A stretch of DNA of 64,000 bases from Rhizophagus irregularis (GCF_026210795.1 NC_089429.1:5332001-5396000), one strand, 5' to 3'. Shown: positions 1 to 47,108, numbered from the stretch's first letter. The notes: a model not told the origin generated them from the letters alone. Made by a program: numbers and translations.

Positions 1-2301
1 AGTATCCTCCTTATATGCTCTTATTAGATCTGCAAGCTCTTTACGACTGGGTGTTTTAGGTAAGTACCCATTATATTCTATCCAGTCCTTGAAGCGGTCT
101 ACTACTTCCCTAAGGTAGTACTGGTACTCGTCCTCAATACGTGTTGTGGGACATTCCTCTACTTTAAACACAAGTATTTCCCAGTCATAGTCGTCTGACG
201 CGTCTTGGTACTTAGCCCATAAATCCTTACCTGTATTGTAGAGATCATTGAAGACCTGGTCCTTTGAATTCTTGACCCATGGATTACGATCCCATCGGTG
301 TCTTTCATGCCAAGCCCAGTGTGCTTGAGTACCTTCCTTTGGTTTAGGGTCCCGGTCAACTTCTAGTTCTGTGTCAGGTTCTGGGATAGGTTGCTCTTCA
401 GGAGCCGGTTCTGGGTCAGGCTTAGTGACAGATGCAGAAGATTCTGCAGGAGACTCAGGTTGTTGCTTAGGAACTTGGTCTGCAGTTGTAGGATCTGAGT
501 CAGATAGCAAGTCATCTAAAACGTCATAGTCATTATCAGCTTTAAGTGCAGGTTCCTCATCAGATAGATAACAGTCTGAGAAGCTATCTATAGTTTCATC
601 AGTATCTGACTCTATAGGAGCTGGAGATTCCTCAGGAATAGGATCCTCATTGATGACAGGTGCGGGTTTTACCTTCAAGCAATCAGGCTTAAGTGGTACT
701 GGTGGTGGAGTCTTTTTGGAAACTGGTTGCTTTTCAGTAGGTTTTTCTTCAACAGGTTTCTCAACAACTAGCTCCACTTTCTCTTGATCTACTTGCGATT
801 TACTAGCTGGATTATATATATTTGCCAAGAACTTCACCAAGGCATTTGGATCAGATGCGGGCTTCTCAGGAGTTTCTACATCTATTCCTTCTATGTCTAT
901 CTCGTCTGTTTCGTGGATCCATTTTTTAGTGAGAAACTTCTTGTAAAGGTCCTCCCTGGATATACTGTAAACTCGTGGTGTTGCCTTACCTACACGTATT
1001 TTTCTGCTATTTATACCCAACTCATTTGATAGGATTCTAGAAGCGTTTATCTTTGATAGGGGTGTAATGCAATGAGTTTCACAATATGAAGTATATACCC
1101 TATAAAATTCTTGAACAGGTAGGTCAGTTATATAAGTGTCCTTTATGAATTGAAATAGGGGTGGGAGAGTTGATATCATGTGATCCTGCTTAGATGTTGT
1201 CATAGGTGGTGGATTTCCATTGAAGTCCGGGTAAGCGTCTGCAATGGCTCTCAAGTAAGCATAGAATGCCTCACTGGCGCCTGGGTATTTCATAGCGTCA
1301 CTGAGTTTCTTAAAGTAGTTGAGGTCTCCCTTGCGGGATGGTGACACATCCAAGAATACTGTGCGCCTATCGTCATTCTCCACTCTGAGAGCATTTTCAT
1401 TGGTGAGTACAATGGTGGATATAAAGTTTTTGTAATGTGTTGGCATCTTGTATTTTTCATGGATTTCCATTATGTCGCCTGTTACCTTATCCTTCAACGA
1501 TCGATACAGATTATTCCACTGGCTTTTTTCTGTAGGCATTTCCTCGAGGAGAAAAAGAACCTTACCCTGTAATTGCCCATTGAAACTTCCAAGAATCGTT
1601 TGAGGATCGCTGGTCTTATAAACAAGTTGAGTACCTAAGACACTACGTTGAATGAAATCTGTTATAATACTCTTACCCCAACCCTGTCCAGATTTCAGGT
1701 AGAGAATCGAATACATTTTCCTTCCAGCTGCCACACCGGCCAACCACTTTATGATATACTCAGTAAGATTCCAATCGCCTGAACACCAGATATCCTGAAT
1801 GTGGGAGAAGATAAATTTAACTGCGAGGTGGGTTGTAGATTCAAAAGTGGATATCGGACGCAGGATATGGAGAAATCCTAGGAAGATATTGAGATAAAGT
1901 TGGCCACCTAGTTTAAAGATACGGGATTTTTGAGGGTCACAGGTAGCTACACATACAGTACTATATTCGATCATAAACCATTTGTTGATATTGAATTCAA
2001 CCTTTTGTGAAGGACCCTGTTCGGATTGTGTGTAAAAGACTTTGGTAATTGGACGGATAAGTTTACTAATATTTTTATCAGGGATGTGCTCAAGGTTTTT
2101 AATTTCTGACCGCCACATGAAGACTCCATGCGGGTTGGAGCAGGGAATAAAGTAACTGCAAAGATAACCTTTAGCTTGATTAAGATCCCTCATATTCTTT
2201 GCAGCGTTAATGAGCCGTTTAAGCTCATCAATACTAAAAGCCTTCTTCTGTTCACCGAACTTGGGGATAACTTGAGCTTGAGTGCTAGTTTGGGCAGTCA
2301 T
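1..2301 (-). CDS. D5-like / superfamily-3 helicase (DUF5906-like), 3'-truncated by window edge, >=767 aa, intronless
   Basis: Manual translation from ATG at 2301 (MTAQTSTQAQVIPKFGEQKKAF...) is open to base 1 with no stop. Walker A SGQGWGKS (~aa 204-211), Walker B VLFLLEE, motif C IVLTNEN, arginine finger DDRR. A winged-helix-like segment follows (LFQFIKDTY...EFYRVYTSYC...RVYSI), then a Pro/Glu-rich linker. Confidence 0.88.
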   Translation of the reverse strand, partial: MTAQTSTQAQVIPKFGEQKKAFSIDELKRLINAAKNMRDLNQAKGYLCSYFIPCSNPHGVFMWRSEIKNLEHIPDKNISKLIRPITKVFYTQSEQGPSQKVEFNINKWFMIEYSTVCVATCDPQKSRIFKLGGQLYLNIFLGFLHILRPISTFESTTHLAVKFIFSHIQDIWCSGDWNLTEYIIKWLAGVAAGRKMYSILYLKSGQGWGKSIITDFIQRSVLGTQLVYKTSDPQTILGSFNGQLQGKVLFLLEEMPTEKSQWNNLYRSLKDKVTGDIMEIHEKYKMPTHYKNFISTIVLTNENALRVENDDRRTVFLDVSPSRKGDLNYFKKLSDAMKYPGASEAFYAYLRAIADAYPDFNGNPPPMTTSKQDHMISTLPPLFQFIKDTYITDLPVQEFYRVYTSYCETHCITPLSKINASRILSNELGINSRKIRVGKATPRVYSISREDLYKKFLTKKWIHETDEIDIEGIDVETPEKPASDPNALVKFLANIYNPASKSQVDQEKVELVVEKPVEEKPTEKQPVSKKTPPPVPLKPDCLKVKPAPVINEDPIPEESPAPIESDTDETIDSFSDCYLSDEEPALKADNDYDVLDDLLSDSDPTTADQVPKQQPESPAESSASVTKPDPEPAPEEQPIPEPDTELEVDRDPKPKEGTQAHWAWHERHRWDRNPWVKNSKDQVFNDLYNTGKDLWAKYQDASDDYDWEILVFKVEECPTTRIEDEYQYYLREVVDRFKDWIEYNGYLPKTPSRKELADLIRAYKEDT

Positions 2302-2521
2302 TTTTTGTTCTATCAAATCGAGTACTAATTTATAGTTACCTAATCTTCAATTGCCGAATATTTTTTCCAAAGATCTGCACTCCTACCAGATTACCCTCCT
2401 GTAGTCCTGTGGTCCTGCGATTCTGCGGTCCTTCGGTTATATCTGGTTATCTTCTAGGGGTAAAAAAAAAACTATAAACCACGAACCTTTACGACTGCTC
2501 TAAATCTTCCCTTCCCCTTTT

Positions 2522-2881
2522 TCAAACTACATATATCTGAAATCCAAACCGCTCAAGAGCTCCTTTTACTATAGTTAGCTCTTTTCTAGTGTCCGTTAAC
2601 TCTTTACAAGCCTTTTGATACGCCTTCCATTCAAGTTCACGGAGGATGCCCTCCTCCTCCAATGATTGGCCAAGAGCATCATTTGCTTTTTCCTTCTTTT
2701 CTACTGCCCTGTCGTATGCCTCTTCGGCTTTTTTATGCCGCTTCCAGAGTACTCGTTCAGCTTCGGCTTTCCAGATTGGGCTGACTTCTAAAAGATGTGG
2801 CCCGAAATTGCTACTTGGAATGTGTTCCAGAATATGGCCTACAAGTTCGGGGATTACTGATACTGCGTGTGAGGTATACAT
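2522..2881 (-). CDS. Small protein with N-terminal F-box-like motif and charged helical/coiled-coil C-terminus
   Basis: 119-aa ORF. IPELVGHILEHI...LLEVSPIWKAEAERVLW resembles the F-box pattern LPxE(l)xxIlxxL...VsxxW...Lw. Same strand and GC level as the helicase. Confidence 0.55.
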   Translation of the reverse strand: MYTSHAVSVIPELVGHILEHIPSSNFGPHLLEVSPIWKAEAERVLWKRHKKAEEAYDRAVEKKEKANDALGQSLEEEGILRELEWKAYQKACKELTDTRKELTIVKGALERFGFQIYVV

Positions 2882-3400
2882 GTTATCTGTTTTTATAGGT
2901 TACTTATGGTATACCCATTGTTCAATTACTTATTTTTTCTGACGGGGATGAGACGGGGTTGGTCTTACTGGCTCTATAGACCTTCTAGGGGCTTACCTGC
3001 TAACTTACCTGGTTTGCTGTCTCACTGCTTCCAACAGATGAATAGACAGAATCCTGACTTGTTCCAGACGTTCCAGATGTGGCGGATCTGGGGGGTAAAA
3101 ATAAAACTTTTTCTGGGGGGATGTCCTCTCATATTTTTTCTGAAACATCTGCCACATCTGCCACATCCGGGACAACCCTCTCATTATATCCGTTATTCCT
3201 TTCTTTTCTATTGTTTTCTAGTTATTTGGTATATATATTTGTTCCATATGTTGTCCCAGATTGTGGAGGATCTATGGGGGATTCCTGAGCCCCATAGGGG
3301 CCATATAGGTACTGCGACGGGTCGTAGACCTGGAGGTGGGTGGTGCTAGCACCACCCACATCCAGCCTGACGACAGCCGGCGTCCTCCTAGTACGCGTAT

Positions 3401-3700
3401 TACAAAAATAAAATAGTGAAAAGAAACGTTAGTTCGTTTCTTAAATTTAAAATAATAATGAAAAGTTCCCTTTCCCCCATTATTTACCTTAAACAAGTCC
3501 AGTTTCATGTTAAAGCTGGTGTCTTACAAAAAAAACAATGTAAAAGAAACGTTAGATCGTTTCTTAACTTCAAAATATTAATAAAGTTCCCTTTCCCCCA
3601 TTATTTACCTTAAACAAGTCCAGTTTCATGTTAAAGCCGGTGTCCTACAAAAAAAAATAATGAAAAAGAAACGTTAATTCGTTTCTTAAATTTAAAAAAA
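3401..3700. repeat. ~122-bp tandem repeat, ~2.5 copies
   Basis: aaaagaaacgtta..cgtttcttaa...aagttccctttcccc(c)attatttacc(t)taaacaagtccagtttcatgttaaagc recurs at ~3420, ~3543 and partly at ~3665. Confidence 0.85.
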
Positions 3701-5210
3701 AAGGATAAAATTAAAAAAAAAAATTAAAAAAATAAGTAAGTTTCGAAATGAAACTTACATTACTTCCAAGAATAAGAGGCGTGAGAAAAGGGGGACGAAA
3801 GGGGAAGGGAAGGACGAAAGGGGAAGGGAGTGACAAAGGGAAAGGGAAGAACGAAAGGGAAGGACGATAGGGGAAGGCAGGATGATAGGAGAAAGGAAGG
3901 ACAAAGAGAAAAGTTTAAAAAAAGATGATCCTTTTTTAAACTTTTAATATGCGTAATGCAATGCGTGATGTTTAATTAGTGCACTATTCGACCAATGTCT
4001 AATCGTAGATCATGGTCGAATTTTTTCCTATTTTGACTAGTGGCTAATATAATAAATTATTTTTATAAATTTATTCACCCATTTGATAAATATTGAATTA
4101 TCATTATTTAATGCTGCACATCATGATAAAAATCTCATTGATGATGCTCATTAATGTTAAATATTACATGTTCATTTAAAATAATGAATATTATAATATA
4201 CATGATCTACAAAAATGTATATATAATAAACATTTTTTCCGTGACTTCCTGATGTTATTAAAATTATCCAACTTTAACCCATAATATTAATTAAAATTCT
4301 TATTAAATTCTATAAAATAATCTGATAGAAATGTTCAGTACATGTTGCTATATCATTTTATCGGTTTAGTTTTTTCTTTTTACTATTCAATTTACAATTT
4401 ATAAAAATTTGAAGTCACTTAATATTAGTGTGGTTTATAGGTGACAGCCACCATACTACAACACAAAATCTCAAATTATAAATTTGAACAAAATATTTTA
4501 ACCAGCGGTATCTTGACATAGTACGTATTTTTAACGTTTGCTTCAAATTGATACATGAAATGATAAAGTTTATCATTAAAAAATATATATAAATATTTTG
4601 TTCAGCAAAATATTTTTTGAGATTGACGTACTACATTGAAGTTTTGAAAAGGAATTCAATATTGAGTGTCATAAAAAAAAACTTCGCCCGCTAATGCTTG
4701 TGCGGTGATGATCAACTGAAGAAATTATACCTGATCAAAATATTTAAAAACTATTAAACATAATTAATTTACTTAAAATTAAATACGTTGAGAACCTCAC
4801 GTATTAGAATATTTCGGGCATTAGTAAAAATTGGTATTATTGATCCAATCATGATACCTGTAACTGTGCTTAAATAATTTTGTTGAATAAATTTTTTTAT
4901 AGGTCTATTACAGCAAAATATACAACCTACAATTGTTAAATTTGAACATGACTACATACATTAATAGGACCACCTATTTACTTGTCTTCATATATCTTCT
5001 TCGCAAATTGATCTATTCTATGTTGCTAAATCAAATAGTCACGCACCTGATGCTAATAATAATCATGTTTGATGTATCCCAAATTTAGTCTTCATAACGA
5101 ATCAATAGCTAATAACCATTAAATACTATCTTACAATAGTCATAATTGTGATTAAGTTTTTTTAGAACATAAATTTTATTATTTCATAATTTCAAATAAT
5201 ACATATATAC

Positions 5211-8200
5211 CAGTGTTGGCCATTGGCCGTTTGGCCAGGCTTGGCTATTGCCTGTTTGACCATTTGGCCATGGCCAAATGGCCAAGTTTTAAATTTTGGC
5301 TGGCCAAAAAATGGCCAAAAATTTATATATATAAATATTAAAAAAAAGTAACTACTTAAAATTTGTAACATTTAAATTTAATTATTTAATTCATTTTTAT
5401 TATAAATTTAGTTAATTTGAAGTATTTTCATTAACAAAAAATGGGGCATCTAAATTATCAATAAAAATGTTTCTTATATTCCATTTAGCTTCATTATCTA
5501 ATGCAGGATGTGTTCTATTTAATAAAAATTCATCAATATCTATATCATCATCACAATGTAAATCAGTTACAGCACTCAACTCTGCTTCTTTTTCCTGTAA
5601 TAATAATTGCCTCCATGTATTAATTAGATTATTCCAATTTAATGAAACCTGGAATTCATTATTTTCACCTTCTTCATCTGAATCATCATCTTGAGTGTTA
5701 GAATTTTCTTTTTGGATTTCTAAGTTAATAGGATTTTTTTCTTAATTCTCTAAATTTGTATTATCATTACTATTAATAATTATAGGAACTATTGGTTCAG
5801 CAATATTTTCTTTCATTTTTTGTTGTTGAATAGTTTTCACTTCATCAACCCTATGTTTATATGAAATTGCAGCACGTAATTTGCTCATTTTAAGTGTTTT
5901 TTCATACTATTTAAAAAATAAATTATTTATTATTACATTAAATTATAATTTTTTTATAGATTTAAAATAATATTATTTTACTTACATTTAATCTATTGCG
6001 CCTTTTGTATGTAGAAATCCCATATTTGACCAAAGCCTTTCTACTGATGCTGCATTAATACAAATTCCAAAAATTCGTTGTGCGACATATCCAAGTTCTT
6101 TTGCTAATGGAACAACAAATCTCCAATATTTTAAAATATCATCTTCAAATTGATTACTTGTTTGTTCATCAAAAGGATATATACCTCTTCTAAAATTTTC
6201 ATATTCACGTAAAATTGATTTTGAAATTGTTTTCATCCAAGCTTCGTAATAATAAATTAGCCACTTACTAAGATATACATGATTTAAATTTGGGATATTA
6301 TCTTTAAATTTTGACATCTTGTATTTAGGATGTAAGAGCCATGATAAAAGTAAAAGTGGTTGTTCCCAACTTTGCCATCTTGTTTGAAGTCGATCAAGTA
6401 TTTTCTCACTAAGTTCTATATCATCATAATCTTTCCAAAATTTTATAAAATATCCAAATCCATGCAGTACTTCATGCAGTCGTGCTTTATCACATTGTAG
6501 AATATCCAAAATTATACAGTATGATTTAAGTATTTTTACAAGTTCTGAAAATGATTGCCACCAGGTTTTGTCAAGTAGAATAGAAGAAATATTATTAGGT
6601 AGATATAATATATTATCAGAACTTTGATGAGATGTTGATTCTCAGGAGATTCAAATTTTGAACCTAAAGTCTTTAGAAAAATAGAAATAAATTATTTTCA
6701 AATGTTATATAAAAATAAATAAAAATATATTATAATACCCGTAATGCCCCTTTTGATTTAATTAAAGTGCGAAAACATTCATAATGGCTATTCCATCTTG
6801 TATCATTTCCAATAGCGATTTGAACATATTTTCCATATGATTCTTTTTGTAAAGTTCGAAGCTGTCTAATAAAATATTTATGAAGTGATGATTTAAAGTA
6901 AAGCACAATTTTTATTGCCTTTATTGATACTTGCTTAAATTTTTCAGATTCTTTAAAGATTTCGCCTACAAAAAGATTCATCTGATGTGCGAAACATGGA
7001 AGAAACGTAATATGCACATATTTAAGTCGAAGCCTACATCTGTTAAAATATAAAATATAATTAATATTTACATAAAATATTAAATAAATATTTTAATAAC
7101 TTAATTTTTAAAAAAATATACAAATATACCGTGCAGCAGCATAACTTGAAGCACTATCAGTTACAACAGAAATAAGATTAACTCCCATTTTATTAATTTC
7201 CTTAAACATTGTTTCAGTTTTTTCAATAACTTCTTTCCATCTTTCTAATTCACTGCTTACATCTACTGCTTTCCAAATTATTACTTTCCCTTCTGATGTA
7301 ATAAAAACAGAGCCAAGAATATTCTGATTTAACACATTAGTCCAACCATCAAAGGCTAAAGTAACACTAACAGAATCATTCATTAATTTCTTAGTCATTT
7401 CATTTTCAAGAATTTTTGATTCATCATTTAATATACGTCCTCCTAAAGTTTTACGTTCTGGTAAAATTAATGCTGGATTTAAAAAATGAAAAAGTTCTTG
7501 AACTTCCTTATTTTCCACCCATCTTAAAGGAAAACCTGCAGAAACTGTTGCTTGAATCATTAATTTTTCAAATATAGTTTGTTCACCCTTTGTAAATGAT
7601 CGAGTTGCAAGTGGTCTAGTAATGAAAGACTAATGAAAGAATCAAGTGTACCAACTGATGAATTATTGCTGCCTATATAAAAAAATATTAATAATAGTTT
7701 TAATATAAAATTATCAAGTATTATTATTAATAAATAAAATAAAAGATAAATACTTCTCAATGATATAGAAGTTATAGCACTATGAATTGAACCAGTTGAT
7801 TCTCTACGCAATCTTTTTGAACTTACAATATTTTCGTCAAATTCATTAATTTCCATTCTTTTTGTTTCCGATGCAAATAATTCAAAAAATATTTCAGGAT
7901 ATTTATTTTTAAAATGTTGACATTTTTTCAAGTAATTTCTAACTCGTTCAGTTTTAAATGGAAATTTTTGAAGCAATGCATTCGGACGGCCATTAACATA
8001 TCTACACGCAATACAAATACAATAATTTCGCCAATTATCAGCTTTTTCTGATAATATTTCCACAAAGGTTTTAAAATTAGCAGCCATTTTATTTATATTT
8101 TATTTGTTTTTAGTTAGTGAGTTAGTCAGTTTTGAACACAAAAATCAAATTATAAATACCGGAAAAAAAAGATGATAAAAAAAAAGATTGCTGATCTTGG

Positions 8201-8377
8201 TCAATCTGGCCGATTTGGCTGTTAGCCAATCGGCCAAATCGGCCAAAATTTGCTATTGGCCGCGGCCAATTTCCAATGAGGTTTTGGCCACCAATTTTGG
8301 CTGTTGCCCTTGGCCAATCAGGCAAATCGGCCAAATCAGGCAAGCTAGTCTTTGGCCGTGGCCAAATGCCAACACTG
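5211..8377 (-). mobile_element. hAT-family DNA transposon, full length, inactive
   Basis: TIRs CAGTGTTGGC (5211-5220) / GCCAACACTG (8368-8377). Dense TTGGCC/GGCCAA subterminal repeats at both ends. Imperfect TSD (atatatac vs atattatatac). Internal transposase. Confidence 0.9.
5412..8087 (-). pseudogene. hAT (DUF659/RNase H-like) transposase pseudogene, multi-exon
   Basis: Motifs: BED-like CxxC, LAFDGWTN, VTDSASS, PCFAHQMNL, DTRWNSHY, NAASVERLWS. Disrupted by an 11-bp duplication (7619-7640), a 1-bp loss near 6640, a 1-bp loss near 6003 (HTKRRNRL read as HTKGAID*) and an in-frame TAA in the last exon. Confidence 0.9.
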
Positions 8378-8396
8378 ATATTATATACTATATATG

Positions 8397-8972
8397 TAGA
8401 GGTAGGCTCTGAATCTGGTCAATCCGGTCATCCTAGGATCAATCCGTCTAATAGGCGGATTCGGATTGATCAGATGAATCCGTCAAATAGACCGGATGGA
8501 TGACCGGATATCCGATCAATCCTATACGGGATCGACAAAAAATTTTCCTTTTTAGGAAATTTTATGTTACACGACCGGAAACTAAATTTAGAAAAACTGG
8601 TTTTTGTGGAACGGGTATCGCCATAAATGGAAACGATCGACATACCCGTGCGTCACGTGACAACAATTAAATACCTAATCATAAATTCCGGCTGAAATTA
8701 AATGATCGGCGAAAAATATCCTTTTTAGGATTCTTGTAAAACCAAAAATTTCATTTTTGCTGGGAAACAAAATTTCCTTTTTTGGATTTGTGTAACGTTA
8801 CTCATACCCTAAAAAGGATAATTCCATGCCGATTACTTAATTCCGGCCGGAATTATAATCAATCCAGTCAATCCGCGGATAATCCAATAATCCGATTTTT
8901 TTAATCCGGATTGATCCGTCACGTGATCATCCGGATGACGGATTGACCAGATTCATCTGGAGCGCACCTCTA
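8397..8972. mobile_element. Non-autonomous TIR element (hAT-like TAGAG termini)
   Basis: tagaggt...tgaatctggtcaatccg(g)tcatcc at left matches the reverse complement of ggatgacggattgaccagattca...acctcta at right. ATCCG/CGGAT subterminal repeats. No TSD found. Confidence 0.7.
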
Positions 8973-8984
8973 CCCGGTTAAATA

Positions 8985-9429
8985 TGGCACACCGGACTGG
9001 ACAGATGTTTAAACGTAAAAGCTAAATCATTTGACGTTTAAGGTTAACTGCAAAATTCAAATGATTTGCTGTACCAACAAACTGTTTGACTTTATAGTTA
9101 AATTCTTTGCCAATACTGTCAAACAGTTTGGCGATATGAAAATAATTTTCCATATTTGGTTAAAATTCAAATGGTGCAATTTAAGTAATAATTTTCTTTT
9201 TAAAAGTCTTGTGAAATCCTATTTCCTTTATAGGAAATTTGTTTATAGATTTGCAAATACTTTGGAATTAATGGCAAATGCTTTGGGAATTAATGACAAA
9301 TGCTTTGGAATTAATGACAAATGGTTTATATTTAACGCCAAATGCTTTGTACTCCAAAGTCAAATGATATGGTGTTAACGTCAAATGATTTAGCTTTTAC
9401 GTTAAACATCTGTCCAGCCTGGCGTGCCA
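8985..9429. mobile_element. MITE with ~55-bp TIRs
   Basis: tggcacaccggactggacagatgtttaaacgtaaaagctaaatcatttgacgtt / aacgtcaaatgatttagcttttacgttaaacatctgtccagcctggcgtgcca, flanked by TA. Confidence 0.85.
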
Positions 9430-25582: not shown

Positions 25583-28500
25583 ATGGCAAGCGATTCCAGT
25601 AGTAAAAATATTGATACAAATAAGCATACTCAATGGATTGAAAATGGCATTGCTTATAATTATATTAATTACCATGATTATAATGAATTTGAGAATATTA
25701 AATTTATAAAAAGAGGAGGATTTAGTGATGTTTATCGAGCTACTTGGAAAAATTCAAATACTGCTGTTGCACTAAAATATATCGCAGATATTGGCATCAA
25801 AGATATTGTTAACGAGGTATGACTAAATAATATTTATTATAATACCTTCTTATAAATAGTAATTTTTTTTTTATTATTTAGATAAGTTTATTGGTCAAAG
25901 TCAATAATATTCACGTGAATATTATTCGATTTTTTGGTATCGCTAAAAGGCATAGTAAGTATTTTTTTTTTTAAAAAAAAGATCTTTAAAGAAATATATA
26001 TCGTTAAATTAATTTATATATATATATTTTTTTAGATAACGATGATATGAATTCAAGTTATTTGTTAATTTTTGAATATGCAGATAGTGGTACATTGGGA
26101 AATTATTTAAAAGATAATTTCAATAAATTAGATTGGAATATGAAATTGAAGTTTGCTATTCAAATTGCTGATGCGGTCTCATGTATACATGATAAAGATA
26201 TTATTCATCGTGATTTAGTAAGCAATATTTTTTTATTAATTTATTTTTAATGACGTTTATAAATTTAATTTGATCTAACACTTTATAAATAATAGCATTC
26301 AGATAATATATTGGTTCATCAAAATACGCTTAGATTAGCAGATTTTGGACTTTCACGTAGAGTGGCTGAAGTATCAACTCAAAAAGAAATTTTTGGAAAA
26401 ATAGCTTACATTGATCCACAATATTGTCAACCGAAAACAAATAAAGATACTATTGGTTATGAATATAAACCAAATAAGAAATCAGATGTATATAGCGTTG
26501 GTGTACTCCTATGGGAAATATCATCTGGGAGAAACCCATTTGAATCTTATGATAATGGTTATCTAAGAATAAGTTTGATGTTTGAAATCTTAAATGGTAA
26601 AAGGGAAATTCCAATCCCTGGTACACCGAATGATTATATTAACATTTATACAAGTATGACTTTTATTATTTGTATATAACTATATATAATATACTTATAC
26701 TATATATTAAATATTAACGTAATACTTACTATAAAATAATTTTTTTTTTTTTAGAATGCTGGCAAAATAATCAAGATGATAGACCAGAAATGAAACAAGT
26801 ATTAGATGACCTAAAATCGATCAAGATTGAAAATAATAACGAAATTATTATTAATGAATTATTATTCCAATATGATAATTTTAGTAGAAAAGGAATTTAT
26901 AAACGAGTAGATTTTATTAAATTTGTTAAAGAATATATAACATTAAACAATAAGAATGAATATGAAATATTCAATTATTTATTAAATAATAAGGATAATA
27001 ATCCTCAAAATATTTTTCTTTTGGCAATTTTTTATCAATATGAAATTGGTACTGAAAAAAGTGAAATTAATGCATTTGAATTATATAAAGAGGCATCTGA
27101 AAGAGGTTACATTAATGCATTATATCAGTTTGGAGTATGTTATGATTATGGAATAGAAACTGAAAAAAATAAAAGTAAAGCATTTGAATTATATAAAAAA
27201 GCTTCTGAAAAAGGGCATATTAATTCGACATATAAGCTTGGAATATACTATTGTAACGGAATAGGGATTGAAAAAAATGAAATTAAAGCATTTGAATTAT
27301 ACAAGAAATCAGCTGAAGAAGGTCATTTTAATTCTATATATCAACTTGGATTTTGTTATCAACATGGAATAGGAACTGAAAAAAATAAAAACAAGGCAAT
27401 TTTATTATATAAAAAAGCAGCTGAAAAAGGACATATTAAATCAACGTATCAACTTGGAAGATGTTATTATTATGGAATAGGAATTGAAAAAAATACATTT
27501 AAAGCATTTGAATTATATGAAAAAGCAGCTGAAAAAGAACATCTTGATTCAATACATCAACTTGGATTTTGTTATCGATTTGGAATAGGAACTGAAAAAA
27601 ATGAAAATAAAGCATTTAAATTATATAGAAAAGCAGCTAATGAAGGTCACGTTAGTTCAATATATCAACTTGGAGAATGTTATCATTATGGAATAGGAGT
27701 TGAAAAAAATGAATTGGAAGCATTTAAATTATATAAAGAGGCAGCTAATAAAGGTGATAATGATTCAAGATATCATACTGGGTATTTTTACCAACATGGC
27801 ATAGGAACTATAATAGATGAATTTCAAGCATTTCAATTATATAAAGAAGCGGCTGAAAAAGGACATATTAAATCAATGTATCAACTTGGAGAATGTTATT
27901 ATTATGGAATAGGAATTGAAAAAAATAAATTTAAAGCATTTAAATTATGTAAAGAAGCAGCTGATAAAGGTGATAATGATTCAAGAAATTTTACTGGATA
28001 TTGCTATCAATATGGTATAGGAACTATAATAGATGAATTTCAAGCATTTCAATTATATAATAAAGCGGCTATTGAAAGTCACATTAATTCAGTATATAAT
28101 CTCGGATATTGCTACCAATATGGAATTGGAACTGAAAAAAATAAAATTAAAGCATTTGGATTGTATAAGGAAGCAGCTGAAAAAGGACATGATTTTGCAA
28201 TGTATAATCTTGGAGAATGTTATCAATATGGAGTAGGAACTAAAAGAAATGAAACTAAAGCATTTGAATTATACAAAGCAGCATCTGATAAAGGTAATGT
28301 TGATTCAATATATCATATTGGATATTGTTATCAATTTGGAATAGGAATTGAAATAAATGAAGTTAAAGCATTTGAATCATATAAAAAAGCCGCTAGAGAA
28401 CTACTTATTGATTCCGTATATCGGTTTGGATATTGTTATCAGCATGGAATTGGAACTGAAAAAAATGAAACTAAAGCATTTGATTTATATGGAATGGCAG

Positions 28501-29717
28501 CTAATTGGGAGCATATTTCTTCAATAAATAGTCTTGGAGAATGTTATCAATATGGAATAGGAACTGAAATTAATAAAACTAAAGCATTTGAATTATATAA
28601 GAAGGCAACTGATAAAGGTGATAGTCATTTTTCAACATATTCTTTTAGATATTGTTATCAATATGGAATTGAAACTGGAAAAAATAAAAATAAAGCAATT
28701 AAATTATATAAGAAAACAGCTGAAAAAGGTTATATTGCTTCATTAAATAATCTCGGAAAATGTTATCAATATGGAATTGGGACTGAAATGAATAAAGCCG
28801 AGGCATTTAAATTATTTGAAAATGCATCCCAAAAGGGGCACCTTGATTCAATATATCAACTTGGATTTTGTTATCAGCATGGAATTGGAACTGAGAAAAA
28901 TAAAATTAGAGCATTTGAATTATATAAAAAAGCAGCTAATAAAGGTCATATTAATGCAATAAATAATCTTGGACATTGTTATGATTATGGAACAGGAACT
29001 AAAATAAATAAAATAAAAGCTTTTGAATCATATACAGAAGCTGCTGAAAAAGGTCAAATTAATGCAATGTATAATCTTGGATACTGTCACCAATATGGTG
29101 TAGGAACTGAAAAAAATGAAATTCAAGCATCAAAATTATATGAAAAGGCGGCTGAAAAAGGGCATATTAAATCAAAGTACCAGCTTGCACACTTTTATCA
29201 ACAGGGAATTGGAGTTGAAAGAGATGAAGTTAAAGCATTTGAAATTTATAAAGAAACGGCTAAAAAGGGCAATGTTGATTCAATATATCAACTTGGAGAG
29301 TGCTATTTTTATGGCATAGGAACTGAAAAAGATGAAGTCGAAGCATTTACATTATATAGTAAAGCAGCTGTAAAAAACCATATTGATTCAATTCATGATC
29401 TTGGATATTGTTATCAGCATGGAATTGGGACTCTGAAAAATAAGACAAGAGCATTTGGATTATATATAGAAGCAGCTGAAGAAGGCCACGTTACTTCTAT
29501 GAGTAATCTTGCAGAATGTTATCAATATGGAATTGGAACTGAAAAAAATGATATTAAAGCATTTGAATTATATAAAGAATTAGCTGAAAAGGGCCATCTT
29601 AATTCAATATATGATCTTGGATATTGTTATGAACATGGGATAGGAACTGAAAAGAATGAAATTAAAGCATTTGAATTATACAATGAATATGAAAATAAGC
29701 TTGATAATGACCTATAA
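25583..29717 (+). CDS. Tyrosine-kinase-like protein kinase fused to ~25 Sel1-like repeats, 5 exons, ~1269 aa
   Basis: Exons ~25583-25816, 25882-25954, 26036-26217, 26296-26653, 26755-29717 join in frame. RGGFSDVY, VALK, HRDL|HSDNIL, ADFGLS, AYIDP, SDVYSVGVLLWEISSG, then 36-aa A..G...A.Y.LG.CY..GIG.EKN..KAF.LY repeats. Confidence 0.95.
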
Positions 29718-34039: not shown

Positions 34040-36109
34040 ATCAAACATCTCAAATACTAAAAAAACATATTCAACCAGACCCTAACGATTACAATTTTTT
34101 CGTTCCTGTCTTTTCTGTTAGTTCAAAAGCACGCGAACGCATCATTAAGACAAATTCTACTATTCCTACAATCCTACCGAGAGCACATCAAGTGATCCTC
34201 CTCCTTCACCCAAATTTATAATTTTAGGAACACAATTCCCTCATGAAAAAATTTTATCACCTTTAACATGCACAGTTGACAACTATGACTCTTTACCGCA
34301 AAGTATTTTCATACCTGAGAATCTTCGCCCTTTTATACCAACTACACCCGTTTACACAGCACCATCAGAAGGTTCGAAATACTTAGCCCCAGGTTCTCCT
34401 GGTTGGTTTAAATATCTCTATGATCAAGAACGGAAAACAGAATACAGACGCCAATGAGATATCCAAGAACAAGAATCCAAGCGTAAAAAACTTGAAGCAG
34501 AGAAACAACACAAAGCTCGCGTTGCGTACTACAGTACAAGTGTAAATAAATTTGACCCTCACTCTCCTACTTCAGCAATGATTTACATCAACAAATGAAA
34601 CGTCGATCGGTTTTTGCCGGAAAACACAAAAATGTTACGAAACCTGATATAACAGAAAAGGAACACGCCCACTTTGAAATCAATTACTTAGACTACGTCG
34701 CACAAACTCATTGGATACACTGTACTCCTCGTTCAGGCACGTCTGATAACACCAAAGAAATTGAAACACGTCAGCGTAAGCGAGACACTACCATCAACAC
34801 TAACCTTACTTCATCCAGATTTCTCCACACGACCCAAAAGATGCATCCGACGACCGGTTCCCACTGACTCCCCAGCTGTTGGACCTTCTAATTCGAAATA
34901 ATTTTGTTTACGATTATTACGTCTTTTACATAATGAGTCAACATACCCTATTACGAGTAGTTATAATACATCCTACATCATTACATTAAAACAATTTAGA
35001 ATAGTGTGAACCACTCCTACCTTTGACATTATTGACAGGCGGCGACATTATGTCGAAAGAAAAATACGGAGCATTTTATGAAACTAAATCTTATTCCAAT
35101 CAGCGGAAACGTATTTCGATACTAAACTATAATTCCTTATATGGGTGGTTAAATCTTATACCTGATGTTCCCAAAATTTTACTTTTCCCAGAAAGGTTTG
35201 TTTGATTAAATGATATCGCTATCGTTATCCCTCGTTTCCTGGATACTCACTGCGCGTTTGTTGTTCTCATTTAATTCTTACTTTTCCAGTTCTACACCTT
35301 TCTCTATTCCTTTGGTAGGGGCTGTGCCTTCGTTTAATTTATTTATGCGTTCGCTAAATGTTGCGTTCAACTTGTTGCAATTTTCTAGCTCTTCTATGCT
35401 CGGTATCCTTGAACCCGATTGGCTATCTGATGCTTCAAAAAATTGTTCATCTTCCGAAGAAGATGATGAAGCGACATTGTTTGACGCCTTTCGGAACTCC
35501 GTTTTCTCGTAAAATCCGTTTTGGCCAATTAAATCGTATCTGGAGACCTTCACCGAGTTTATCGTTCATTGCAAATTTGTATATGTTTAATCTTATTAAC
35601 TATAAGTATAACGATTTTAGCCAAATGACCACCATATGTTTTAACGTAATTTTTGACTATTTCATGATTCTTTATATTCGTTTGAGTTTAATTTTTTCAC
35701 CGCCTGCCAGCTATATCTTTTCTTAATATCTATTGCTTTCAATCTGGCATCAAACATCCTGAAGAAATATTCACGTCCTTTTTTTTGAGCGACAATGTTC
35801 GATCCACTTTGCTCGTATCTGGTTTCCCTTGTTTATATAGGCGGCGTTTGATAAATAATTTTTCTCTGTGTTCAGCTTCCTTTGTAAGTTTTCGTACATG
35901 TCTCATTTTTCCAATGTCGTAAATTTCATATCACGTGTAGTTTCGGATAAATGTTGATCCGAGTCACCGATTTTCGGTTTGTTTGTGTTGAAACATCTAC
36001 ACCAATTTTGTTCAAACTACTCATTTTCCAATTTATGATAATTAACAATGTGTAATATTCAGTGGCTGCAGTGATTACCATTTCCTTTTTGATTATACTA
36101 CATTTTCCT
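34040..36109. pseudogene. Block of degenerate coding-like sequence of unknown origin (probably TE-derived)
   Basis: Higher GC and broken reading frames on + (~34040-34900) and - (~35000-36109). Abuts the 5' end of the Sel1 gene at 36121. Family not recognised. Confidence 0.4.
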
Positions 36110-36120
36110 TTCCTGAACGC

Positions 36121-37167
36121 ATGCAAGACCATCTTAACAAAAAAATGTGTCAACCACCGAATAATACAGGTCCACAATCTATTCAACAAAATACTACATT
36201 AATAAATGACAACTTTAATAACCATTTGAGTGAAGAGGAGCAAAATTCTCTCAAATTAAAACATGGAAAAGTAAAAATACAAATGAATGATAATAGTGAT
36301 AATAATTTTTCAGGATTACGTCATCTTGGATATTGTTATCAACATGGAATTGAAACTGAAAAAAATGAAATTAAAGCATTCGAGTTATATGAAGCAGCAG
36401 CTGAAAAAGGTGATGTTGATTCAATATATCAGCTTGGATATTGTTATCAACATGGAATAGGAACTGAAAAGAATGAAATTAAAGCTTTCGAACTATACAA
36501 AGCATCTGCTGATATGGGTCACGTTGTTTCAACATATAATTTTGGGAAATGTTACGAAAATGGAATAGGGATTGAAAAAAATGATAATGAAGCATTTAAA
36601 TTATATGAGAAAGCAGCAGAAAAGGGTCACATTATTTCAATATATAATCTTGGAAAATGTTATTCTTGTGGAATAGGAATTGAGTACAATAAAATTAAGG
36701 CATTTGAATTATATAAAAAAGCAGCTGATAAAGATCATCTTGATTCAATATATCAGCTTGGATTTTGCTATCTTTTTGGTACAGGAACCGAAGAGAATGT
36801 AATTAAAGCATTTGAATTATATACTAAAGCAGCTGATAAAGATCATCTTGATTCAATAAATATACTTGGATTTTGTTATCATTATGGTATAGGAACAGAA
36901 GCGAGTGAGATTAAGGCATTCGAATTATATAAAAAGGCGTCCGATAAAGGTCATCTTGATTCAATGTATAAGCTCGGGAATTGCTATTTATTCGGTATAG
37001 GAACAGAAGCGAATGAGATTAAGGCATTGGAATTATATAAAAAGGCGTCCGATAAAGGTCATCTTGATTCAATGTATAAGCTCGGAAATTGCTATTTATT
37101 CGGTATAGGAACAGAAGCGAATGATATTAAGGCATTGGAATTATATCAGAAAGTTGCTGGCCGATAA
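36121..37167 (+). CDS. Sel1-like repeat protein (~8 repeats), N-terminally truncated paralog of 45493-47108; possibly a pseudogene
   Basis: 348-aa ORF. Upstream in-frame PER|MQDHLNKKMC matches PKR|MQNHFDKKEC of the 45.5-kb copy. The last repeat is frameshifted (gctggccgataaaggtcat). Shares 3' flank sequence (~37600-37700 vs ~47111-47218). Confidence 0.8.
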   Translation: MQDHLNKKMCQPPNNTGPQSIQQNTTLINDNFNNHLSEEEQNSLKLKHGKVKIQMNDNSDNNFSGLRHLGYCYQHGIETEKNEIKAFELYEAAAEKGDVDSIYQLGYCYQHGIGTEKNEIKAFELYKASADMGHVVSTYNFGKCYENGIGIEKNDNEAFKLYEKAAEKGHIISIYNLGKCYSCGIGIEYNKIKAFELYKKAADKDHLDSIYQLGFCYLFGTGTEENVIKAFELYTKAADKDHLDSINILGFCYHYGIGTEASEIKAFELYKKASDKGHLDSMYKLGNCYLFGIGTEANEIKALELYKKASDKGHLDSMYKLGNCYLFGIGTEANDIKALELYQKVAGR

Positions 37168-45492: not shown

Positions 45493-47108
45493 ATGACTAA
45501 AAAAAAGGCCCCGTTTGGAATCATTTTAAAATAATTGGTAATGTTGGCGACCCACATCCTCACGTACGATGCGAATATTGTCCTAAAGAATCTAAACGAG
45601 CTGTTCCTAAACGAATGCAAAATCATTTTGATAAAAAGGAGTGTCAAGGACTGCAACAATATATTAACCGTTTGAGTGAATCTTCAAAGTTATCAAATAA
45701 AGATGATAGCAATAATCTTTCAGGAATACATCATCTTGGATATTGTTATCAGCATGGAATTGAAACTGAAAAAAATGAAATTAAAGCATTTGAATTATAT
45801 GAAGCAGCAGCTGGAAAGGGTCACCTTGATTCAATACATCAACTTGGATTTTGTTATCAACATGGAATAGGAACTAAAAAAGATGAAATCAAAGCATTTA
45901 AATTATATACAAAAGCAGCTGAAAAGGGTTATATTGTTTCAAAATATAACCTTGGAAAATGTTACGAAGATGGAATAGGAACTATAAAAAATGAAATTAA
46001 AGCATTTGAATCATATAACACAGCAGCTGAAGCGGGTCACATTGTTTCAATATATCATCTTGGGTTATGTTATGAAAATAAAATAGGAACAGAATATAAT
46101 GCAAGTAAAGCATTTGAATCATATAACACAGCAGCTGAAAAGGGTCACATTGTTTCAATGTATCATCTTGGGTTATGTTATGAAAATAAAATAGGAACAG
46201 AATATAATGCAAATAAAGCATTTGAATCATATAACACAGCAGCTGAAAAGGGTCACATTGTTTCAATGTATCATCTTGGGTTATGTTATGAAAATAAAAT
46301 AGGAACAGAATATAATGCAAATAAAGCATTTGAATCATATAAAGAAGCAGCTGAAAAGGGTCACATTGCTTCAATGTATCATCTTGGGTTATGTTATGAA
46401 AATAAAATAGGAACAGAATATAATGCAAATAAAGCATTTGAATCATATAAAGAAGCAGCTGAAAAGGGTCACATTGCTTCAATGTATCATCTTGGGTTAT
46501 GTTATGAAAATAAAATAGGAACAGAATATAATGCAAATAAAGCATTTGAATCATATAAAGAAGCAGCTGAAGAGGGCCACATTGTTTCAATGTATCGTCT
46601 TGGGATATTTTATGAAAATAGAATAGGAACAGAATGTAATGGAGATACAACATTTGAATCATATGAAGCAGCAGCCGAAGTAGATCACATTGATTCAATG
46701 TATCATCTTGGATTTTGTTATCAACACGGAATAGGAACTAAAAAAGATGAGGTCAAAGCATTTCAATTATATAATGCAGCAGCCGAAGTAGGTCACATTG
46801 ATTCAATGTACCATCTTGGGATATTTTATGAAAATGGAATAGGAACAGAATGTAATGTAGATAAAGCATTTGAATTATATAAAGCAGCAGCTGAAAAGGG
46901 TCACTTTGATTCAATGTGTTATCTTGGGATATATTATGTAAGTGGAGAATGTAATGCAAATGAAGCATTTAAATCATATAACACAGCAGCTGAAGTTGGT
47001 CACATTGATTCAAATTCTGAGATATATGAAGCATTTGAATCAAATAAAGAGGCAGATGAAGAAAAGGGTCATGATTGGTGGTCAAGGTCCATTAATTCTT
47101 TTCAATGA
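45493..47108 (+). CDS. BED-type zinc finger fused to ~12 Sel1-like repeats (1-bp shift in an A8 run just after the ATG)
   Basis: The frame of the 497-aa ORF extends upstream: KKGPVWNHFKIIGNVGDPHPHVRCEYCPKESKRAVPKRMQNHFDKKEC (WxHF...CxxC...H...C). The ATG at 45493 is one base out of frame across A8 (45499-45506). Confidence 0.8.

What the first reader, a model, noticed from the sequence alone, without database searches (positions are those of the whole stretch)
1..3391. Hidden D5-like/SF3 helicase gene on a GC-richer, intronless, virus-like island missed by the ORF track
Seen: a 2301-nt minus-strand frame with no stop, carrying SF3 motifs (SGQGWGKS, FLLEE, LTNEN, DDRR). It is intronless, unlike the flanking P450, kinase and SDR genes, and lies in a compositionally distinct block with a sharp right boundary. 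Established: SF3/D5-like helicases are typical of DNA viruses, virophages, Polinton-like elements and phage satellites, not of core fungal replication; endogenous giant-virus sequence has been reported in Rhizophagus. Inference: this is the end of an intact, probably young, self-replicating or virus-derived element. I recognise no primase or HUH motif in the ~200 aa before Walker A, so the initiation function may lie left of the window or be unusual.
Basis: partly seen in the sequence, partly recalled or inferred. Interest (0 to 1): 0.88.

Follow-up and report, generated by a model that had tools for sequence, protein, structure and literature searches.

The report
End of virophage-derived fungal transposon
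This is a primase-less helicase gene of a high-copy repeat family in a mycorrhizal fungus; its relatives sit next to a mavirus-type protein-primed DNA polymerase, so it is likely one end of an already reported, virophage-derived element that is predicted to copy itself and integrate without making virus particles.

Summary
The ORF, its SF3 motifs and the GC step (0.42 vs 0.27, change point 3397) are real. The gene is neither hidden nor unique. About 80 of 92 hits are Rhizophagus-type copies, many already named 'highly derived D5-like helicase-primase'. The protein has no primase: it matches the NrS-1 C-terminal region and starts where AEP-fused relatives end their primase. In relatives the next gene downstream, which would lie left of the window, is a ~620-aa protein-primed PolB whose best structural hit is mavirus pPolB (E 3e-34). 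This fits the capsid-less fungal lineage of pMVRE group 1 (Wei et al. 2026; ~14-kb TIR elements in Rhizophagus), probably the Glomerales 'Mavericks'. 'Young and intact' is doubtful, with 16 private substitutions and two small deletions. Position 3391 is probably not the terminus, because other copies continue into the same AT-rich repeat. New here: a conserved head-to-head 9-bp repeat block (3059-3225) that looks like a helicase-loading origin, and a hypervariable winged-helix wing. Integrase, TIR partner and target-site duplication were not seen. Verdict: new member of a known kind.

The parts
1..2301 (-). Primase-less SF3 (D5/NrS-1-type) helicase ORF, aa 1-767 of 829; continues 62 codons left of the window
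1363..1698 (-). AAA+ core (DUF5906, aa 202-313) with Walker A, Walker B, motif C and DDRR
895..1155 (-). Predicted winged-helix DNA-binding domain (aa ~383-469); its wing is hypervariable among close copies
   Evidence: weak Pox_D5 hit, E 0.019, below cut-off; above cut-off in P0015 and P0016; model; wing variants
1..804 (-). Acidic/Pro-rich disordered linker (aa ~500-650) followed by a helical domain of unknown function (aa ~659-764)
   Evidence: AlphaFold pLDDT below 50 for 500-650 and block means 76-92 after it
2522..2881 (-). Accessory 119-aa ORF, multicopy and next to the helicase in other copies; optional cassette; F-box likeness not shown
   Evidence: cluster of 9 with adjacent accessions and a fused model; joints skipping about 2367-2968; no Pfam F-box hit; E 0.11 to an F-box ORF
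3059..3225 (.). Head-to-head arrays of 9-bp repeats (3061-3087 and 3147-3173) around an A/T-rich spacer; candidate helicase-loading origin
   Evidence: aligns with the L004 upstream region, score 65 vs shuffle maximum 59 of 200; 0 of 300 shuffles; statistic chosen after seeing the data
3321..3374 (.). GC-rich palindrome / hairpin
   Evidence: z about -5; 0 of 200 shuffles for 3260-3400
3388..3397 (.). GC-to-AT step with CTAG at 3388-3391; probably inside the terminal region, not the end
3397..3700 (.). About 2.5 copies of a ~122-bp AT-rich tandem unit; candidate outer part of the terminal inverted repeat, or a separate repeat
3988..4041 (+). Second hairpin followed by CTAG|T (Helitron-like 3' end by recalled consensus); membership in the element unknown
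   Evidence: z -3.97

Best explanation
The block is a primase-less SF3 helicase gene with its upstream region from a high-copy Rhizophagus repeat family, likely one end of a capsid-less, mavirus-derived self-synthesizing DNA transposon (pMVRE group 1, probably the Glomerales 'Maverick'), predicted to replicate by protein priming and to integrate with an rve integrase. Shown: the helicase fold without primase, the high copy number, and a same-strand protein-primed PolB directly downstream in relatives, with mavirus pPolB as its best structural match. Inferred from Krupovic et al. 2024: the PolB (TP-vOTU-palm, exonuclease reduced) would cut off its terminal protein with the vOTU protease and prime at the ends of an excised linear copy, while the hexameric helicase unwinds the duplex. 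My hypothesis: the helicase would load through its winged helix on the head-to-head 9-bp repeats at 3059-3225. Inferred from published domain counts: an rve-chromo integrase elsewhere in the ~14-kb element would insert new copies. This particular copy is probably methylated, nearly silent and starting to decay.
For: 92 helicase hits, about 80 of them Rhizophagus-named or closely similar. Summed contig depth is 37,551-210,890 over 1-3400 against 171-612 over 4601-6000 in run X2, with the same contrast in X3 and X7 (not a copy number). Helicase then pPolB in both metagenome loci long enough to show it (L001, L002; 2 of 6 loci). Fused helicase-PolB gene models. Adjacent public locus tags: OCT59_002844/002843, 011664/011665, 019712/019711 and 018626/018624. 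The L001 PolB model hits mavirus pPolB best (617 aa, E 3.4e-34; next hit 2.3e-15). Motif C reads R[IV]HTDG in 94 of 119 PolB relatives; both vOTU motifs are present in 71 of 119. The helicase model aligns with the NrS-1 C-terminal region over 453 columns. 115 of 123 distant relatives start at the helicase and 2 carry an AEP primase in front. All three IMG/VR loci with 27-31% identical PolB carry an rve-chromo integrase and a helicase ORF (DUF5906 in L008 and L009; in L007 a fragment judged by eye); L009 has a virophage capsid. dN 0.13 vs dS 1.27 against L001. Wei et al. 2026 describe a capsid-less fungal lineage in group 1 with DUF5906, list 128 Glomeromycota elements of 169, and count pPolB with rve 109 times.
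Against: The PolB tested is from a relative (L001), not from this copy. No integrase was found for this family: none of the 120 listed of 464 hits carried a Rhizophagus name, none appeared in the unmatched parts of fused gene models, and in L001 and L002 no integrase lies between helicase and PolB, unlike L007 and L009. The TIR partner, target-site duplication and empty site were not seen. I could not map the published Rhizophagus coordinates onto this subfamily. Wei et al. call the fungal lineage 'likely plasmids'. The PolB model is mediocre (pLDDT 67, pTM 0.39).
Confidence: 0.8

Rival explanations
1. An integrase-less linear plasmid (helicase plus pPolB) whose chromosomal copies arise passively, by repair or by capture in other transposons such as Helitrons, rather than by its own integrase.
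For: Wei et al. call the fungal lineage 'likely plasmids'. I found no integrase. Hairpin-plus-CTAG motifs lie at 3321-3392 and 3988-4041.
Against: Their own table counts pPolB with rve 109 times and DUF5906 with rve 79 times in a group with only 41 non-Glomeromycota elements (assumes the counts are per element). About 100 chromosomal copies in R. clarus, many near 14 kb and with mostly 92-100% identical TIRs, suit active integration. No HUH or PIF1 domain was found.
Confidence: 0.1
2. A complete provirophage that keeps capsid, penton, packaging ATPase and protease left of the window and is activated by a fungal giant virus.
For: The closest viral relatives (L007-L009) carry an rve integrase, and L007 and L009 show a packaging ATPase or capsid by Pfam. 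A32-like ATPases are reported in Glomus and Rhizophagus.
Against: The fungal lineage is reported as lacking structural genes. pPolB with MCP is counted only 25 times in group 1. Small unknown ORFs and an F-box ORF follow the PolB in L001.
Confidence: 0.07
3. A relic of an endogenous giant virus (NCLDV D5 primase-helicase).
For: The best BFVD hit of the helicase is from a giant-virus bin (Satyrvirus, 38%, E 7e-38).
Against: There is no AEP primase. The partner polymerase is protein-primed and mavirus-like. The block is dispersed in many copies. The Satyrvirus gene may itself belong to an inserted or co-binned element (inference).
Confidence: 0.03

Closest known systems
pMVRE group 1, capsid-less fungal lineage (Wei, Liu, Gong, Han 2026, PMC13215967)
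   Same: Palm-retaining truncated pPolB related to mavirus; DUF5906 SF3 helicase, specific to group 1 there; Glomeromycota hosts including R. irregularis (6 complete elements, 14.7-34.9 kb, TIRs 277-924 bp) and R. clarus (103 rows).
   Different: In the parts I read the paper gives no gene order, origin, target site or activity for this lineage and calls it plasmid-like. I could not match its coordinates to this subfamily.
Mavirus and low-GC EMALEs (Krupovic et al. 2024, 10.1101/2024.03.18.585575; Hackl et al. 2021, PMC8547959)
   Same: TP-vOTU-palm pPolB of about 617 aa with the first Asp of motif C missing and a remnant exonuclease; a separate SF3 helicase gene.
   Different: No capsid module is seen or reported. 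Helicase and PolB are adjacent with no integrase between them. The helicase has a long acidic linker and an extra C-terminal helical domain. It is a high-copy nuclear repeat, GC-richer than its host.
Glomus/Rhizophagus Polinton-Maverick (Kapitonov and Jurka 2006, Pritham 2007, both not read; cited in PMC7805220, PMC11952901, PMC8647823)
   Same: A capsid-less Polinton reported in G. intraradices; Mavericks recently expanded and specific to Glomerales.
   Different: Whether those annotations are this family was not tested. Canonical Polinton pPolBs keep the exonuclease and are longer.
NrS-1 primase-polymerase C-terminal region (PDB 6k9c, 6k9e, 6lrb); D5, C962R and SaPI primase-helicases
   Same: N-terminal collar domain, AAA+ SF3 core and winged helix align over about 450 columns.
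   Different: The AEP primase-polymerase domain is absent; priming is delegated to a separate pPolB (inferred).

Membership tests
pMVRE group 1 | pPolB related to mavirus pPolB (palm kept, exonuclease lost) | tested here: met
   Tested on relative L001, not on this copy: best Foldseek hit is mavirus, E 3.4e-34; Pfam matches only profile positions 209-401 of 468; collinear by eye with the first 400 residues of the mavirus row in supplement 7. No formal tree with mavirus was built.
pMVRE group 1 | DUF5906 SF3 helicase | tested here: met
   E 9e-17, above cut-off
pMVRE group 1 | Terminal inverted repeats at both ends | not testable with these tools
   The other end lies outside the window and no genome is held
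pMVRE group 1 / self-synthesizing transposon | rve-chromo integrase and target-site duplication | tested here: inconclusive
   No Rhizophagus-named hit among 120 listed of 464; none in fused models; published counts imply rve in many Glomeromycota elements
Mavirus-like virophage (EMALE) | Capsid, penton, packaging ATPase, maturation protease | not testable with these tools
   They would lie left of the window; absent from the 2.2-2.7 kb after the helicase in L001 and L002; reported absent in the fungal lineage
Canonical Polinton/Maverick | Full-length pPolB with proofreading exonuclease | tested here: not met
   619-649 aa with about 140 residues between the vOTU His and the palm match; adintovirus PolBs score E 7e-5 or worse. 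Exo motifs were not scanned one by one.
NCLDV D5 / C962R primase-helicase | N-terminal AEP primase | tested here: not met
   AEP only in two relatives with 290-300 extra N-terminal residues
Helitron | HUH Rep fused to PIF1 SF1 helicase | tested here: not met
   No such Pfam hit in the ORF or in 18 relatives; only hairpin-plus-CTAG motifs

The most novel reading that the evidence does not exclude
A virophage that lost its capsid became an autonomous nuclear transposon in mycorrhizal fungi. Its subfamilies are kept apart like plasmid incompatibility groups: each helicase winged-helix wing variant reads its own head-to-head 9-bp repeat origin near the element end, which would be an iteron-type origin in a protein-primed eukaryotic element.
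Probability: 0.25. Interest if true: 0.65.

Novelty: new member of a known kind. Interest (0 to 1): 0.3.

Why it matters
The family is reported but barely characterised. It is a candidate for the recently expanded Glomerales 'Mavericks' in a culturable fungus, so one could test there whether a capsid-less virophage derivative still replicates and transposes without a helper virus. The conserved repeat block gives a concrete binding site to assay. The locus itself is one ordinary, slightly decayed copy. A practical point: public gene models splice, truncate or fuse these intronless genes, and the name 'helicase-primase' is wrong because there is no primase.

Tried and rejected
No whole genome is held, so the left part, the other end and empty sites could not be read. 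Helicase scans of viral contigs and prokaryote genomes (for PolB) found nothing. The integrase profile search listed only unnamed or 'hypothetical' proteins among 120 of 464: inconclusive. An F-box in ORF2 was not supported. My first idea that Walker A GKS is a private defect was rejected: 16 of the 58 hits with the motif share it. CpG depletion (0.53) is not unique to the block: 2 of 17 other windows give 0.48 and 0.54. A helicase tree (25 rows; L008 skipped because the motif pattern missed it) puts the window copy in a supported R. irregularis clade, but deep joins are long-branch and were not used. A Helitron reading was rejected for the protein; the CTAG motifs stay unexplained. No RNA holder was listed. 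The protein atlas gave no result. Earlier scan findings were unrelated or absent. PMC3671162 held none of my terms. The PDB sequence search with the PolB found nothing useful.

Full report
Observation. The minus-strand frame 1-2301 has no stop and runs off the left edge. Pfam gives DUF5906 at aa 202-313 (E 9e-17) and a sub-threshold Pox_D5 winged helix at 383-469. PHROGs primase families match only from aa ~158 onward. GC is 0.423 against 0.269, with the change point at 3397. A stored model identical over aa 337-767 shows the ORF is 829 aa.

It is a known, high-copy family. The search returned 92 proteins, about 80 of them Rhizophagus-named or closely similar, many called 'highly derived D5-like helicase-primase'; the best is 91% identical. 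Two clusters hold 81 and 103 member sequences across assemblies. In three DNA runs the summed contig depth over 1-3400 is far above that of 4601-6000 (X2: 37,551-210,890 vs 171-612). The tool warns that this is no copy number; I use it only to say 'highly repeated'. The host is therefore most likely Rhizophagus irregularis (inference).

There is no primase. The AlphaFold model (pLDDT 71) aligns with the NrS-1 C-terminal region, residues 305-718, over 453 columns (E 3.6e-14): collar, AAA+ core and winged helix only. A profile search of 1.84 billion representatives found 1,315 at E up to 1e-30. Of the 141 new ones listed, 123 match from the profile start; 115 of these have under 50 extra N-terminal residues, 6 have 50-150, and 2 have 290-300, which are C962R-type AEP primases. 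After the winged helix come a disordered acidic/Pro-rich linker and a helical domain of unknown function.

The initiator is the next gene. Gene models P0011, P0012, P0015, P0016, P0069, P0075 and P0082 extend the helicase, by splicing, into a downstream polymerase-like region; Pfam PF03175 is seen, below cut-off, in P0075 and P0082. Of 6 metagenome loci, the two that extend far enough show an intact same-strand PolB, 60 bp (L001) and 101 bp (L002) after the helicase stop. Four pairs of public locus tags place helicase and PolB side by side or two apart. ORF2 sits just upstream of the helicase in other copies (GBC38929/GBC38930; OCT59_002846/002844; fusion P0341), and some copies skip it (joints 2366-2401 to 2969). 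The L001 PolB model hits mavirus pPolB best (E 3.4e-34, next 2.3e-15). Motif C lacks the first Asp in 95 of 119 relatives (24 have no match), and both vOTU motifs are present in 71 of 119. Krupovic et al. 2024 (passages read) describe this TP-vOTU-palm architecture for mavirus, with a separate S3H. Three IMG/VR loci with 27-31% identical PolB carry an rve-chromo integrase and a helicase ORF (DUF5906 in L008 and L009; an L007 fragment judged by eye), and L009 has a virophage capsid; the L009 helicase is 23% identical to the window's.

What is in print. Wei et al. 2026 (PMC13215967; I read parts 1-3 of 6 of the text, term passages, supplement 3 parts 1-2, supplement 4 part 1, supplement 5 parts 4-5 and two rows of supplement 7; figures, mmc1.docx and the deposited sequences were not visible and may bear on gene order and origins) define pMVRE group 1 around mavirus. 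[quoted passage not shown] Their table lists 169 complete group-1 elements, 128 from Glomeromycota, 103 from R. clarus and 6 from R. irregularis (TIRs). Their co-occurrence table counts pPolB with DUF5906 116 times, with rve 109 times and with MCP 25 times. With only 41 non-Glomeromycota elements, at least 68 fungal ones would carry rve if counts are per element, so I read the lineage as transposons rather than plasmids (inference). Passages from other papers: a capsid-less Glomus Polinton (PMC7805220); abundant helicase homologues in R. irregularis (PMC11296320); Rhizophagus in a pPolB tree legend (PMC4409740); A32-like ATPases in Glomus and Rhizophagus (10.64898/2026.06.19.733378); recent Maverick expansion (PMC8647823, PMC11952901); EMALE anatomy (PMC8547959). 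Kapitonov and Jurka 2006 and Pritham 2007 were not read.

The right end. 3321-3374 is a strong palindrome and CTAG lies at 3388-3391. However, 57 RNA-seq reads that match from 3404 onward carry an upstream consensus agreeing with 3375-3404 at 24 of 30 letters (my count), so other copies have the same GC-to-AT junction. Against this, depth drops several-fold across 3400, and other reads join the AT-rich unit to different sequence, so that unit may also be an independent repeat or a preferred target. I put about 60% on the true end lying right of 3397. It is unresolved.

The candidate origin. Three 9-bp repeats at 3147-3173 face an inverted array at 3061-3087 across an A/T-rich spacer. The region aligns with the upstream region of L004, a divergent family member (65% over 130 nt; score 65, shuffle mean 26.7, maximum 59 of 200), which has its own different 9-bp unit. 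Both beat 300 of 300 shuffles on a statistic that I designed after seeing the data. The wing of the winged helix comes in about seven variants among 30 close copies whose flanks are near-identical. Iterons read by the C-terminal domain of P4 and SaPI primase-helicases are a recalled parallel, not tested. Covariation could not be tested because L004 ends before its winged helix. Searches for such an origin in print: one search gave one paper, on a phage satellite (listing only); two searches gave none; in Wei et al. 'origin' occurs only outside the results. The library lacks most subscription papers.

State of this copy. Against 30 close copies it has 16 private substitutions, 9 of them single C-to-T or G-to-A changes from a codon of the majority residue (my reading), including P141L where 29 of 30 have P, and deletions of 6 and 5 residues after aa 390 and 581. 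CpG o/e is 0.53. One polyA library gave a mean depth under 3 across the ORF, with most laid reads under 95% alike. The family is under purifying selection (dN 0.13, dS 1.27 against L001), but this copy may be inactive.

Verdict. A real feature, correctly recognised as virus-derived, but one copy of a family already reported in this genus. New member of a known kind; interest 0.3. The origin-and-wing hypothesis is the part worth following.

Noticed in passing
window 5412-8099 (-): Decayed, intron-broken hAT-type transposase: DUF659 (E 1e-8) and a weak Dimer_Tnp_hAT hit.
   Followed up: partly
window ~4092-4600: A further repeated segment begins near 4092-4103 by loose ends and ends by about 4600 by depth; identity unknown.
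   Followed up: no
window 26718-29714, 36046-37164, 45501-47105 (+): Long stop-free Sel1-repeat arrays (24, 8 and 5 passing repeats). The frame at 45501 begins with a Cys/His pattern resembling a BED finger by eye.
   Followed up: partly
window 8100-9000: Second GC-richer block (0.40-0.41) with short repetitive frames; possibly a small non-autonomous repeat.
   Followed up: no
L002 3970-4575 (-): A 201-aa ORF converging on the PolB whose C-terminal part resembles the helicase winged helix by eye (DUF3874, E 0.1); possibly a stand-alone origin-binding or regulatory protein.
   Followed up: no
L001 4557-5233 (+): A 138-aa ORF after the PolB is conserved in the family (cluster of 19; similar tails in fused gene models), followed by an F-box ORF (E 8.8e-6). 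The L001 helicase is frameshifted near aa 100.
   Followed up: partly
BFVD hits: Giant-virus bins hold the closest viral helicase (Satyrvirus, 38%) and the second-best PolB (Harvfovirus, 25%); these may be related elements inserted in or co-binned with giant viruses.
   Followed up: no
window 3775-3945: Purine-rich ~19-bp tandem tract followed by an 18-bp perfect-like hairpin at 3909-3945.
   Followed up: no
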